Program-made: the position numbers and the translations under genes
Shown: piece by piece, positions 7,101-51,605 of the stretch
How positions within the stretch are numbered: the first letter of the stretch is position 1
Layout of the letters: each line of letters opens with the position of its first letter
NCBI GenBank assembly: GCA_964016885.1
Contig: OZ024740.1
Span: 220,844,001 to 220,908,000 of the forward strand
Length of the DNA stretch: 64,000 nucleotides
Direction of reading: 5' to 3'
Origin: Eledone cirrhosa
Lineage: Eukaryota
Notes under the pieces: model-generated
The model's database searches: none
What the model was told of the DNA's origin: nothing
Seen by the model: only the letters and a program-made list of their open reading frames with translations

Positions 7101-10100
7101 TGTCAAAAATAATTGTTTCTACTTTTGGCACAAGGCCAGCAATTATCCCAAGTGCATTACTGGTGTTTTATTTTATTTACCCCGTAAGGATGAAAGGCAA
7201 AGTTAACCTCGTGGGATTTGAACTCAGAACCCTGCCTCAAAAATAATAAATATATAAAAGATGTCATGTTATCATCTGGGATGTCATGACTTCCTAGATT
7301 CAAACCCTGAACATCATCAGCTTGTTCTTGTGATCATAATTCCTGTAGAACTAAACAACCAAACCTTTCACTTTTTGTGACTCTCTTCGAATGGACACTT
7401 CTTGTCCCAAGAGCTTGCTGCTGTTTGTAGAGCATTGATGACACAGTTTTCAGTAATGTTACTTCAAGCATTCTTTACACAAGTAATGACCTCTTGCAGG
7501 CTAGGTTTCACAAAGTTACTGCGTAGATTTCTTTGTTTTCAATGAAGTTATTAATTTCTGTGCGTAGATGATACTTCAATCATTTGTTTGATTATTTGAC
7601 AAGATTCCAAACCTCATTTGCTTACCAAGTGGGGTGAAAATCATCAAATCAAACCAAGGAACCAATGTTCCCATTGGTTTTTCATTATATATTTATATGT
7701 GTATAAATATATATATATATATATAGGCCGGTTATATGATACCTGTGTGAGGAGCACGATGCTGCATGATAGTGAGACATGGGCAGCAACTGCAGAGGAT
7801 ATGCGATGGCTGGAGAGAAATGAGGCAAGCATGCCCCGTTGGATGTGCAATGTCAATGTGCGTGAACGACCCAGCATGAAGGTGTTGAGAGAGAAACTGT
7901 GTCTGAGAGGGATAGAATGTAGTGTGCGAGAGAGGAGACTGAGCTGGTATGGACATGTGATGCACATGGAGGATGACCGTTGGGTGAAGAAGTGCCAGGA
8001 AATGCCAGTTGAAGGAAGACGTGGTAGAGGTAGACCACGAAAAACATGGGCGGAGGTTGTGAGAACAGACCTCAGATCACTGAAGATCACGGTGGAGATG
8101 ACGAAGGACTGCGACAAGTGAAGAGATGCTGTGCTGAATAAGACCCATCCCACCCTTGCAAGCAGGGAAAAGCGGACATAAAATGATGATGATGATGATG
8201 ATGATATATATAAATATATGTATGTATATAGTGTAGGTGGTTATTGGTGTTGGTACCAAAGCAAGCACTCTGTACACAGGCAGAGTGTATATATATTAGA
8301 AAAAAAAAGAGGAAGTTTCGTTTACATTTAAAAGATATTTATTGTGTATTGAGTGTTACAGGCGTTTTGCAGAGGTCCATAACTCCTAGGGGTGACGTTG
8401 AGCCAATCCTCTGTGAAACGCCTGTAACAGGTCAATACACAATAAATATCTTTTATGTGTAAACAAAACTTCCTTGTTTTTTTCTAATATATATATATAT
8501 ATATATATATATATATATTGTTATACTTTGGGAGGGTCATGTTGCCAATAAGAAACACAAGCACCAGTTGCTTTCACTTCAATTTATTATAAATTAAATT
8601 ATAAATTTAAAAAAATTTATAAATTTCCGATTGGTTGGTTGGTTCCACAACCGGACAGTTGTTCATATATTGTCAAAGTTCTTTCGTCACACATTCTGTG
8701 ACCTCATCAGTGACTGGGGATTCTTTTCTTTGTTTTGTGCATCTCCTTTGTTCTGTCCTACGCCATCTTGTTTTTATGTGTGTTGTGTGCTTAGTTTGCG
8801 CATGTGTTACATTCGGGTGTCTGTGTGTGTTTTTAAAATTAAATAGAAAACATGAATGGAATAGCAACATCACAACTTACAAATAAGGACAAAATGAAAA
8901 CACACACACATAGGACAAACAACTAACTAGTAACATGTAAATAAACAAATAAATAAACAAATAAATAAACAAATAAAAACACACACAGACACCCGGATGT
9001 AACACATGCGCAAACTAAGCACACAACACACACAAAAACAAGATGGCGTAGGACAGAACAAAGGAGAGGCACAAAACAAAGAAAAGGATCCCCAGTCACT
9101 GATGAAGTCACAGAATGTGTGACGAAAGAACTTTGACAATGTATGAACAACCGCTTGGTTGTGGAACCAACCAACCGGAAATTTATAAATTTTTTTAAAT
9201 TTATAATAAATTGAAGTGAAAGCAACTGGTGCGTGTGTTTCTTATTGGCAACATGACCCCCCCCCCCCCAAAGTATAACAATATATATATATATATATAT
9301 TGAGTGTCTGTGGTAACAGGAAACCACAAATCAGAGTAGTACTCGATGCATGGAAAGATGCAAACTGGAAACCACTCAAGCTAGTGGTTGAGTCTACCTC
9401 ATTAATATACACATGCACACACACACACACACACACACACACACACATACACACACATAAGTATATATATTCACTCACATCAGTATAAGCTGAACCGCTC
9501 TCTTAATTTATGTATTTTGAAAGTTTTTAAAACAATTTTATCACATATTTGTTGTACTTTCAGAGAATTACAGGAAAATCTAATCAGATCCCATTGTGCA
9601 GGTAAATTAATAAACTCTCCCCCCTTCTCTCTCTCTCTCATCTATTATATAAATGATGACCATGCTACAGATAGACCAAAGTGCACTTGCTTATATCTCA
9701 TGAGAATGAGAAATAATTTTGTAGTAACTTAATCATCAGTTCCTAGGCTATTCTAACGCTTATAATTATGAAATATTTTTATATGTATAACCTGTTAGTA
9801 ATAATACATCGTGTCTCAAAGTTTCATATTTAGTGGCCCGAGACCATCTTATGACAATGATAGCACAATCTCTTATGTAGATGTCAGAAACATATATGAA
9901 TTGCCTTTTTGTCCTGATATTTCTATATAGAGTTTGAAGTTATGGTAAGGGTTTAACTTATTACTGTGATACTAAATGCCTATGTATTAGGTTGAAGAAT
10001 TTTTTTCATATTAGAAACATTTAAAATATAAAGGGAGTTGAACCAATTAACTTACCTTCTATGTATATTTCTGTGTGTGTTATTGTTTTTTTTTGCATAT

Positions 10101-13100
10101 GTTGTATTTTGCTTTTTCAAGCCAATCCCTGCAAAAGCATCATTGTCATAATAAAAGGCACTCATGAAATCTTCATCGATAGAGATGCATTACATGTCTA
10201 CTAACGAATATATTTATTATGTTGTTGTTATGGTCTAACTCCAGCTCAGCCCTGCAATTAACCATGTTAAACTCCTATTTTGGGGGATATGTAGGGCTAC
10301 ATTACCTAATGTGTTTGTTCCTTATTTAAGACATTAGCATATATTATGATGGAGATTTGGCTGGTATTCCTAGCATGTCTAACAACCATGTAGAGGTCTT
10401 TTTTGTTAGTTTGTGTATTCCTTATGTGGATACATAAGCTGTGAGGGTCTGTGGTCTAATGGTTAGGGTGTTGGGCTTACGATCATAATGTTGTGGGTCT
10501 GATTCCTGGACCAGGTTGTGTTGTGTTCTTGAATAAAACACTTTATTTTCATGTTGCTCCAGTATACTCAGCTCAAAATGAGTACCAGCAGTATCTGGAA
10601 ATTTAACCCTGTGATGGACTGGCATTCTGTCAAAGGAAACCTGGATGAACACCAGCCTAATGAACCTCTGGGCTTGAAACAAACTTTAGACATTAGACTC
10701 ATTAGATAAATAAGCTGGTGGATTGGCAGAACTGATAGAGTGGGAGACAAAATATGCTACAGCATTTTATGTTTAAATTCCACTGGGCTAAACCTTACTT
10801 TTCAGTCTTCTGGATTAGGTAATATATATACCAGTCATGGACTGGGGTCAATATAATTGACTATTTTGGGGGATATGTAGGGCAACATTACCTAATGTGT
10901 TTGTTCCTTATTTAAGACATTAGCATATATTATGATGGAGATTTGGCTGGTATTCCTAGCATTTCTAACAACCATGTAGAGGTTTTTTTGTTTGTTAGTT
11001 TGTGTATTTGATTCCTTGTGTTTATATTAGAAACCAGAATGTGTATACATACACATGTGACAGTGTGACAAATAAGAAGACATTTTAAAAAGTACTATTT
11101 TTGCTGTAGGTGTTGGTCCAACTTTAACAGTTGAAAGGATTAGGATGTTGTTGGCGCTGAGGATTAATGTTCTTGCCAAAGGATTCAGTGGTATTTCCCT
11201 CATAAATCTTAAGAAATACATCCAGGCATTCAACTGTGAGTATTCATTCATATTCTGAAGGCTCCTCTCCCTCTTCTTCCTCATTGTTGTCTTTCGCCTC
11301 CTCTTCCTCACCCTTCACCCCTCCTTATCCCCCCTCTTCCTCACCCTATTCTCCTTACCTCCAAATTGATGATGATGATTTATGACATTACCATCATCAT
11401 CATCACCATCATCACCACAGTCCTCATCATCATCATTATCACCATTTCCATTCAACAACAATAACAGCAACAACAACAGTAACAACCACAACAGCAATAA
11501 CAATAACAACACCCACAACAACAAAAATAGCAACTACAACAGCAATAGCAACAATAACTGCAATAACAACATCAACAACAACAACAACAGTAACAACCAC
11601 AACAACAATAGCAATAACAACCACAACAACAACAGCGACAACAACAGTAACAGCCACAACAACAATAGCAATAACATCCACAACAACAACAACAACAACA
11701 ACAACAGTAATAACCACAATAGCAATAACATCCACAACTACAACAACAGTAACAACAACAATAGCAATAACAACATCCACAACAACAACAACAGCAGCAA
11801 CTAGAACAGCAATAGCAACAATATAGCAACAATAACTGCAATGATGACTATAACAGCAGCAACAATGACACCAGTAGCAACAACTTCAGCAAAAGCACGA
11901 GATATGCCCACCAAATATTGTGAATATATGAATAACAATTTATAGTTTTGCTACAAGATGGCGCTGTTTTTCCAGAATCACTAAAACTTGAATCATACTA
12001 AAATATATAAGTAAAAAAGAAAATGTTCACTCAACATGGCTGAATACAATAAATGTAATATGAGTTTTTCGAATATTAATAATTGTTAATACTTTTGGCA
12101 CAAGGCCAGCAATTATCCCAGTGTATTACTGGTACTATATTTTATCGACCCCCGTAGGGATGAAAGGCAAAGTTAATCTCGGTGGGATTTGAACTCAGAA
12201 TGGCAAGGGCCGTAACTCTATGCATCAAAGCATGGCGTCTGACCTCTACCGATACTGCCAATCCATAATAATAACATTCGACTCGTTTGCAATTATGCAA
12301 ACAAGCCTCAATTTTATAGCCATGCCAGTAGAATGAACCCTTCATTCTACTGACATGGCTATACAATTGAGGCTTGTTTGCATAATTGCAAACGAATCGA
12401 ATGTTATTATTAATATTTGAAAAACTCAGATTACATTTAAAATATATAAGGATTTTAAAGAAAAGCTAAAATCAAGAAAGACAAAAAGATGGAATTGAGA
12501 CGCGTTTTTATAACCACCACCCCATCATCGTCATCATCATCCCCATCATCGTCATCATCATCATCATCTTCATCATGATTGTCATCATCATCATCATCAT
12601 CACCATTGTCATCATCACCATTGTCATCATCCTCATTGTCCTCATCATCACCTAGCTCTGCCTGGCATTCGTCGATCTGGAGAAAGCCTTTGACAGAGTC
12701 CCCCGTGCTATAATCTGGTGGGCTCTTAGAAAACTAGGAGTAGATGAATGGCTTGTGAAAGCTGTACAAGCCATGTATAGGGGAGCAGTCAGCAAAGTTA
12801 GGATTAGCAATGACTATAGTGAAGAATTTAGAATACAGGTTGGTGTCCACCAGGGCTCTATTCTTAGCCCTCTCCTGTTCATCATAGTCCTGCAGGCAAT
12901 AACGGAGGAGTTTAAGACCGGATGTCCATGGAAACTACTGTATGCAGATGACCTCGCACTTATAGCTGAATCTATGGTAGAACTAGAGAAAAAATTCCAA
13001 AAATGGAAGCAGGGACTAGAAAGAAAGTTTCTTGTAAGTAGACGAGAAAACAGAACCTAGATCCCCTCAGGGAAATGGCCTTGCTCAGTATGTAGGAAAG

Positions 13101-51269: not shown

Positions 51270-51310
51270 TATATATATATATATATACACACACACACAT
51301 ATATATATAT

Positions 51311-51605
51311 ATAATATAAGATCAAAAGATGGTTAAAAGAGTTCCAAGTATTTTATTATGCGCATTTCAAAAACAAATATCATCATGGGATGATATCTGT
51401 GTTCTCATCAGATAAAATATGATGAGAACGCAGATATCATCCCATGATGATATTTGTTTTTGAAATGCACATAATAAAATAGTTGGAACTCTTTTAACCA
51501 TCTTTTGATGTTATATTATTTATACTCCAGTCCTACAAACTGTAGAGTGCTACTTATCCGATATTTGCATTGCTTTATTGTGCTACAATAAAACTCACCT
51601 CCTAC
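51311..51605 (+). mobile_element. Hairpin + ACTC/GAGT-tail element (about 100-bp arms); relatives with a decayed right arm at 24281-24543 and 45895-46162
   Basis: Inverted arms 51311-51519, then a tail shared by all three copies; flanked by TA runs. Confidence 0.75.

What the first reader, a model, noticed from the sequence alone, without database searches (positions are those of the whole stretch)
8231..51605. Structural class of (TA)-embedded elements: unrelated long hairpins sharing an adjacent ACTC...GAGT mini-stem and short tail
Seen: several intronic and intergenic elements have a long inverted repeat starting at one terminus. A few nt beyond the other arm lies a small ACTC-N9-21-GAGT stem, then a tail of roughly 10-70 nt, usually into (TA)n. 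Mini-stems: 8267-8286 (hairpin 8289-8492); 12029-12045 (GAAT variant; hairpin 12049-12439); 15789-15817 (hairpin 15827-16181); 16262-16281 (partial); 24756-24774 (hairpin 24643-24748); 45185-45204 (hairpin 44961-45180); 50839-50862 (hairpin 50869-50932); 51524-51548 (hairpin 51311-51519, relatives at 24281 and 45895). The long arms fall into about six mutually dissimilar families, so architecture and mini-stem are conserved while sequence is not. Inference: one trans-acting enzyme recognises the mini-stem or asymmetric end and favours TA microsatellites. Asymmetric inverted repeats plus a terminal stem recall Helitron2/Helentron (HUH) non-autonomous elements; Crypton (tyrosine recombinase) derivatives are an alternative. 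I cannot assign a family.
Basis: partly seen in the sequence, partly recalled or inferred. Interest (0 to 1): 0.72.

Follow-up and report, generated by a model that had tools for sequence, protein, structure and literature searches.

The report
Penelope retroelement ends, conserved tail hairpin
These hairpins are short, mirror-image ends of several Penelope-like jumping genes that land in TA repeats, and the small shared stem is a bulged hairpin conserved in distant relatives that likely tells the copying enzyme where to start.

Summary
In detail: 8 of 19 window hairpins have ACTC..GAGT beside an arm (null 0.23). The Helentron/Crypton reading does not. Two of these ORFs are intact; family C is unlinked. 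Arms carry type I hammerhead ribozymes. Each insertion is a tail-bearing truncated copy joined head-to-head to a tail-less inverted copy in (TA)n, a published Penelope layout. The families have their own enzymes (38% identical), not one shared one. What looks undescribed is the mini-stem: RCTC, variable stem-loop, 2-nt bulge, GAGY-RC. It occurs 41-53 nt after the hammerhead cut in 17 of 27 distant metagenome relatives (null 0.7), with covarying pairs, and in three published Hydra consensi. It lies between the two fixed insertion ends, so it likely positions reverse-transcription starts; this is untested. Density is about one per 14 kb genome-wide. The scan reached this reading twice before on other DNA of this genome.

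The parts
8231..8490 (-). Family A copy: hairpin 8289-8490, mini-stem 8267-8286, tail 8231-8266
   Evidence: family linked to a GIY-YIG ORF end
12012..12439 (-). Family G copy with variant stem (12029-12045); right arm interrupted by a dispersed repeat at about 12077-12265
   Evidence: no ORF link sought
15529..15691 (+).
15781..16181 (-). Family C copy: hairpin 15827-16181, mini-stem 15789-15817, tail about 10 nt; no ORF link found, hammerhead inconclusive
16232..16315 (-). Family D single end with mini-stem 16262-16281 and tail
19830..20180 (-).
24280..24542 (+). Family B copy; hammerhead 24325-24379 on the inverted arm; mini-stem 24460-24484
24643..24816 (+). Family D copy: hairpin 24643-24748, mini-stem 24756-24774, tail
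   Evidence: tail reads into an ORF N-terminus in L382
44961..45251 (+). Family A copy: hairpin 44961-45180, mini-stem 45185-45204, tail
45900..46162 (+). Family B copy; hammerhead 45938-45992 on the inverted arm; mini-stem 46080-46104
50791..50933 (-). Family E copy: hairpin 50869-50933, mini-stem 50839-50862, 48-nt tail; its last 90 nt are identical to both repeats of a full-length element
51312..51606 (+). Family B copy: hairpin 51312-51519 with hammerhead 51357-51411 on the inverted arm, mini-stem 51524-51548, 57-nt tail
51648..51887 (-). Tentative extra member: hairpin 51772-51887 with a GCTC..TC-GAGT stem enclosing a long insert
   Evidence: by inspection
55511..58942 (-). Long member W: 31-nt inverted arm (58912-58942) joined to a 5'-truncated, frameshifted RT-GIY-YIG ORF, 3' UTR, hammerhead, variant stem and tail, flanked by (TA)n
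55702..55767 (-). Type I hammerhead of W
55584..55646 (-). Variant bulged stem of W (CTCC/GGAG, 2-nt bulge, long upper part)

Best explanation
The elements are truncated ends (pseudo-LTR, hammerhead, tail) of several Hydra-clade Penelope-like retrotransposon families inserted as head-to-head inverted pairs in (TA)n, and the conserved bulged stem between their two fixed ends likely marks where the element's own reverse transcriptase binds and starts. SHOWN: ends continue into or out of RT/GIY-YIG ORFs (A, B, D, E, W); two fixed ends per family; inner junctions vary; the stem is conserved and covaries. Confidence about 0.95 for the identity, 0.7 for two-site priming, 0.55 for the stem's role.
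For: E: the window end is 100% identical over 90 nt to two direct repeats 3547 bp apart around an ORF, and the upstream tail reads on into the 5' UTR. A 784-aa open frame is present; the best 150 genome matches are 97-100% identical. B: direct repeats 3.67 kb apart around an ORF (L262), 821-aa frame in L258. D: the tail runs into a KNIP..R*R N-terminus (L382). A: a GIY-YIG ORF end is collinear with the A 3' UTR in L406, and the linking sequence is shared with L361 and L352. Hydra-clade motifs DKT, CxCx5C, CxxC and CxH are in E and B (definitions). Hammerheads fit a strict descriptor at a fixed distance in B, D, E and W; E has the U3-A8 variant published for PLEs. Two ends: arms with tail vs tail-less into TA were E 55:54, B 41:41, D 46:34, A 28:18, W 30:15, C 22:2 (loci are query-selected). 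Arm lengths vary independently (2655 vs 1004; 182 vs 2607) and 24 of 36 junctions overlap by 1-8 nt (BLAST ends, no null run). Stem conservation: 17 of 27 metagenome hammerhead loci vs null 0.7; upper stem 48 of 51 pairs with a 2-nt bulge vs 8-20 at other offsets and 31.3 +/- 2.8 permuted; host proteins are a median 47% identical. The motif is also in Hydra-2_Amil, Hydra-1_Ajap and Hydra-2_Ajap of PMC8557442 File S7. PMC11167929 shows a dimer-predicted PLE protein cutting and extending both strands and starting at two RNA sites that bracket the tail.
Against: No experiment here shows binding or initiation at the stem. In context it is weak: it was the minimum-energy fold only for W (A kept an outer stem without the bulge), and no tail folded better than shuffles (z -1.2 to +0.3, 6 sequences). 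10 of 27 metagenome loci lack the exact motif (some are variants, some end in TA first), and the family of 8521-9278 has a tail without it. Family C has no ORF link in 30 loci plus extensions, and its hammerhead is inconclusive. Family A failed the strict hammerhead descriptor in all copies scanned; its core is seen by eye only. Pfam and PDB sequence searches did not name the ORF; only the ESM Atlas gave GIY-YIG and RVT_1 look-alikes as leads. In tandem copies the stem also lies in the 5' UTR, so it could act in translation or transcription instead.
Confidence: 0.8

Rival explanations
1. Same elements, but the hairpin forms by self-priming or fold-back of a single cDNA or antisense template, as proposed for rotifer Penelopes, with the tail left by endonuclease resolution.
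For: Proposed in PMC3846280 from palindromes at junctions. Craig et al. ascribe the tail to EN-mediated resolution. Junctions cluster at RNA hairpins in E and W.
Against: Either arm can be much the longer one. The inverted arm stops at a fixed site before the stem instead of copying the tail. In vitro work found two internal RT starts bracketing the tail.
Confidence: 0.2
2. Same elements, but the stem is a 5' UTR signal (translation, promoter, RNA stability, or a DNA site for the GIY-YIG nuclease), and its place between the ends is incidental.
For: In tandem copies the stem lies upstream of the ORF start. PMC11167929 notes that the D. virilis tail was needed for EN recognition of DNA. G-U pairs are few among upper pairs, so DNA is not excluded.
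Against: Tail-less arms end 0-13 nt before the stem in all six families examined. It keeps a narrow distance from the hammerhead in distant relatives. It is strand-asymmetric with a fixed 3' bulge.
Confidence: 0.3
3. Non-autonomous Helitron2/Helentron elements moved by one HUH Rep-helicase.
For: Asymmetric inverted repeats with a subterminal hairpin resemble Helitron2 ends (PMC3627910).
Against: Helitron2 ATIRs are 8-15 bp and fixed; here arms span 40-1249 nt and vary by copy. Long copies encode RT-GIY-YIG and carry hammerheads. The genome was not searched for Rep-helicase genes.
Confidence: 0.02
4. Crypton (tyrosine recombinase) derivatives with ACTC..GAGT as the recombination site.
For: The genome has DUF3504-type genes (9 matches).
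Against: 1 of 9 of those loci holds a family end within about 1.5 kb (a D copy), as expected from repeat density. Animal Cryptons have no terminal repeats, and YR sites have 11-13 bp arms with a 6-8 bp spacer (PMC3212892). Here the spacer varies from 11 to 21 nt and folds.
Confidence: 0.01

Closest known systems
Hydra clade of Penelope-like elements, including Hydra-1_Obim (Craig et al. 2021, PMC8557442; read: passages, section 11, supplement parts 1, 2, 52, 53 and one motif search)
   Same: C-terminal GIY-YIG, DKT, CxCx5C linker, CxxC and CxH, hammerhead, (TA)n targets, inverted 5'-truncated copy and one-sided tail
Poseidon_Ac (PAc) of Anolis (Frangieh et al. 2024, PMC11167929; read: parts 1-2 of 4)
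   Same: Two internal RT starts bracketing the tail, both strands cut and extended, AT-rich targets, hammerhead upstream
   Different: Different clade; starts lie in an AC-rich stem-loop inside the ORF, whereas here the tail lies upstream of the start codon; no conserved motif reported
Adineta vaga Penelopes (Arkhipova et al. 2013, PMC3846280; read: passages)
   Same: Head-to-head inverted pLTRs with an optional tail
   Different: Low copy number, 8-10 bp TSDs, self-priming proposed; TSDs cannot be read in (TA)n here
Non-LTR retrozymes (bioRxiv 10.64898/2026.07.22.740005; read: part 1 of 5)
   Same: Short PLE-derived pieces with type I hammerheads
   Different: Retrozymes are tandem monomers with their own cycle; these are mostly inverted, variably truncated by-products of coding elements
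Helitron2/Helentron (Bao and Jurka 2013, PMC3627910; read: passages)
   Same: Asymmetric ends with a subterminal hairpin
   Different: Short fixed ATIRs and a Rep-helicase; neither fits here

Membership tests
Penelope-like elements (EN+) | Single ORF with RT and C-terminal GIY-YIG | tested here: met
   Open frames of 784 aa (E) and 821 aa (B) with FDI..Y, YRDDGL and YIG/YFG motifs. Pfam and PDB did not name them; Atlas leads only. Partial for A, D and W; not found for C.
Penelope-like elements (EN+) | Pseudo-LTRs from tandem or partial tandem copies | tested here: met
   L155, L262, arrays with about 3.54 kb period
Penelope-like elements (EN+) | Inverted 5'-truncated copy and one-sided tail | tested here: met
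Penelope-like elements (EN+) | Type I hammerhead in the pLTR | tested here: met
   B, D, E and W by descriptor; A by eye only; C inconclusive; cleavage untested
Penelope-like elements (EN+) | Target site duplication | tested here: inconclusive
   Targets are (TA)n; no empty sites available
Hydra clade | DKT in place of DKG | tested here: met
   E and B
Hydra clade | CxCx5C linker; CxxC and CxH near the EN end | tested here: met
   E and B all three; W linker only
Hydra clade | N-terminal RWK motif | tested here: inconclusive
   RW kept, third residue R or T
Hydra clade | CCHH motif absent from EN | tested here: inconclusive
   By inspection no CxxC before YIG in E or B; not aligned to canonical PLE ENs
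Hydra clade | (TA)n insertion preference | tested here: met
   23 of 28 unselected motif hits have (TA)4 within 130 nt vs 16% background
Hydra clade | Phylogenetic placement with reference Hydra proteins | not tested
   The tree has no named reference sequences or outgroup
Helitron2/Helentron | Short (8-15 bp) fixed asymmetric TIRs | tested here: not met
   Spans of 40-1249 nt varying by copy; definition
Helitron2/Helentron | Autonomous partner encodes Rep-helicase | tested here: not met
   Partners encode RT-GIY-YIG; C has no partner found
Crypton | Tyrosine recombinase partner sharing the ends | tested here: not met
Non-LTR retrozymes | Tandem hammerhead units giving circular RNA | tested here: inconclusive
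   A few partial tandems seen (L090, L155); RNA not testable, no RNA run listed

The most novel reading that the evidence does not exclude
RCTC-(stem-loop)-TW-GAGY-RC is the clade-wide RNA recognition element of Hydra-clade Penelope reverse transcriptases. It sets two priming sites for a dimeric enzyme that copies from both strands of (TA)n at once, so every palindromic insertion is a fossil of twin priming. It would be the first defined cis-signal for these telomerase relatives and might let different families cross-mobilise each other.
Probability: 0.5. Interest if true: 0.7.

Novelty: new member of a known kind. Interest (0 to 1): 0.5.

Why it matters
How Penelope-like elements make their inverted repeats and tails is a stated open question (PMC8557442), and in the one active in vitro system the binding motif is only mapped to a 172-nt stretch. 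A short, covarying RNA motif between the two fixed ends, plus a young family with many intact ORFs, makes the question directly testable. The motif also gives annotators a tag: 28 hits in 400 kb of unselected genome vs 0.9 expected extrapolates to roughly 200,000 copies, about half palindromic, which TIR-based tools could misfile as MITEs or Helitrons (inference). If the host is an octopus (inference; earlier scan notes say so), such palindromes could add to the unusually high double-stranded RNA potential reported there (PMC5625713); this was not tested.

Tried and rejected
Rfam scan: the 150 rows shown of 333 were all sub-threshold miRNA hits on hairpins and TA runs, so hammerheads were found with my own descriptor. 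The repeat finder on the whole window was swamped by microsatellites. Crypton search: no link. Viral contigs: one weak hit, E 1e-4, ignored. One search used the wrong flank of L105 and gave nothing on long D copies. An apparent left-right allele asymmetry in B hairpins (G only on tail arms) was rejected: the query carried G, and a high-copy family supplies recurrent G copies. Sequencing runs: no RNA holder listed. The AlphaFold job had not finished, so there is no structure evidence. Literature searches found no description of the tail stem; most subscription papers and Repbase/Dfam entries are not covered, and I saw only 4 of 59 supplement parts of PMC8557442 and no supplement of PMC11167929, whose RNA-fold figure S2C may bear on this.
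Full report
OBSERVATION. All listed mini-stems and hairpins are present. 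Random placement gives 0.23 on average and never more than 3 in 20,000 trials. They belong to five families, called here A (8267, 45185), B (24460, 46080, 51524), C (15789), D (24756, 16262) and E (50839). Their ends do not align to each other. The bare motif is only about twice as common as in shuffles (19 vs 9.75).

FAMILY ANATOMY. Genome searches with each end returned 25-43 matches from 24 to 2475 candidates. The exact stem is in A 21 of 30, B 19 of 23, C 19 of 30, D 29 of 30 and E 30 of 30 loci. The tail after GAGT is fixed within a family (about 45, 57, 10, 43 and 48 nt for A-E), while the hairpin span varies, from 40 to 1249 nt in E. Arms end either at the tail or just before the stem, running into TA: E 55:54, B 41:41, D 46:34, A 28:18, W 30:15, C 22:2. 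Long copies found by upstream sequence agree: D 17 proximal, 11 distal, 2 other of 30; A 16, 12, 2 of 30. At 36 inner junctions either arm can be the longer one, 24 overlap by 1-8 nt, and the E and W junctions cluster at internal hairpins (approximate, no null, some junctions recur).

AUTONOMOUS PARTNERS. E: L155 holds (TA)n, an inverted arm, a direct repeat whose tail reads into a 5' UTR and ORF, a 3' UTR, a second repeat with tail, and (TA)n. The window end is identical to both repeats over 90 nt. The frame is 784 aa stop to stop in L172, and the best 150 of 19,038 candidates are 97-100% identical. B: direct repeats 3.67 kb apart around an ORF (L262), with an 821-aa frame in L258. D: the tail runs into a broken N-terminus of the same type (L382). 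A: a GIY-YIG ORF end is collinear with the A 3' UTR in L406, with the linking sequence shared by L361 and L352. The window itself holds a long member, W (55511-58942): a 31-nt inverted arm fused to a truncated RT-GIY-YIG ORF, then hammerhead, stem and tail, with 98-99% identical ends elsewhere. C could not be tied to an ORF. E and B carry DKT, CxCx5C, CxxC and CxH, the marks of the Hydra clade, which also prefers (TA)n (PMC8557442 section 11) and includes an octopus family. Pfam and PDB sequence searches did not name the ORF. The ESM Atlas returned GIY-YIG and RVT_1 look-alikes as leads. B, E and W proteins are 38-40% identical and form one clade with other PLE fragments of this genome (midpoint root, no named references).

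HAMMERHEADS. A strict type I descriptor is met in B, D, E and W, with the cut 50, 27, 25 and 55 nt before the stem. E has the U3-A8 core variant reported for PLEs (PMC4209133, part 1 of 4). A has the core by eye with an interrupted stem I, 68 nt before the stem. C is inconclusive.

THE MINI-STEM. It reads as RCTC, an upper stem-loop, a 2-nt 3' bulge (TT, TA or TC), then GAGY, usually followed by RC. A metagenome scan gave 76 loci of relatives; 27 had a descriptor hammerhead with at least 100 nt downstream. Using the sequence anchors alone, 17 of these 27 have the motif 41-53 nt after the cut; shuffles give 0.67 and random positions 0.74. The first three upper pairs form in 48 of 51 cases with a 2-nt bulge, 8-20 with other offsets, and 31.3 +/- 2.8 when partners are permuted (0 of 5000 reach 48). 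The outer pair is G-C in 16 of 17 of them and A-T in the six window families. That is one compensatory event if those families share an origin; GCTC/GAGC families also exist in this genome. The 25 motif-bearing metagenome proteins are a median 47% identical, with 5 of 300 pairs above 70%. The motif is visible in three of the six consensi of File S7 of PMC8557442 (Hydra-2_Amil, Hydra-1_Ajap, Hydra-2_Ajap); Hydra-1_Amil and Hydra-1_Crog have imperfect versions and Hydra-1_Obim ends before it. In 400 kb taken at round-number positions, the strict motif occurs 28 times vs 0.9 in shuffles; 13 have an inverted arm ending within 15 nt and 23 have (TA)4 within 130 nt vs 16% background. Against: the stem is weak in context, 10 of 27 relatives lack the exact form, and one hairpin family has a tail without it.

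MECHANISM. Published in vitro work shows a PLE protein cutting and extending both strands of AT-rich DNA and starting at two internal RNA sites that bracket the tail (PMC11167929). Applied here by inference: two nicks in (TA)n prime two cDNAs, one just 5' of the stem and one beyond it. At the distal end the element continues with TA or TT-A in read-through copies, which offers a short match to the target. Both cDNAs usually stop early and are joined head-to-head. The stem is the likely protein-binding mark. Fold-back self-priming (PMC3846280) and a 5' UTR or DNA-site role for the stem remain open.

COMPARISON AND NOVELTY. The layout, hammerhead and TA preference are published features of Hydra-clade PLEs. 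Helitron2 and Crypton fail their defining tests. The families are new members of a known kind. The tail stem was not found described in searches, nor in passages of a 2026 octopus repeat annotation. My PLE reading was noted and the bulged stem, before two earlier scan notes with the same reading were seen; they are not independent support.

Noticed in passing
window 8521-9278: Hairpin with a hammerhead in each arm and both arms tail-less; its family has a tail of about 60 nt without the RCTC..GAGY stem, perhaps another PLE clade.
   Followed up: partly
window 52849-52887 (+) and 29174-29203 (-): Two further hammerhead matches outside the described elements; the first has the U3-A8 core.
   Followed up: no
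L155:2840-6385 (-) and G000:C1:91475838-91486977: Family E looks recently active: the best 150 matches are 97-100% identical, many with open 784-aa frames, some in tandem arrays.
   Followed up: partly
L280, L309, L283, L302, L339 (metagenome contigs): A second copy of the bulged stem, complete or partial, lies about 55-65 nt after the first in several relatives; it may mark the distal start.
   Followed up: no
window 18400-23600, 46165-50790, 53500-54085: Multi-kilobase degenerate (TA)n arrays with Penelope ends at several of their borders.
   Followed up: no
L007:1230-1620: A chimeric insertion: an E-family hairpin with tail fused to a B-family end with tail; could be recombination or cross-family joining.
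   Followed up: no
window 3812-4539, 7600-8240, 12656-13894, 59728-62285: Fragments of RTE-like LINE ORFs (label from recall, not from a call).
   Followed up: no
L026-L034: Nine DUF3504 (Crypton-derived domain) matches in the genome, several in long open frames.
   Followed up: partly
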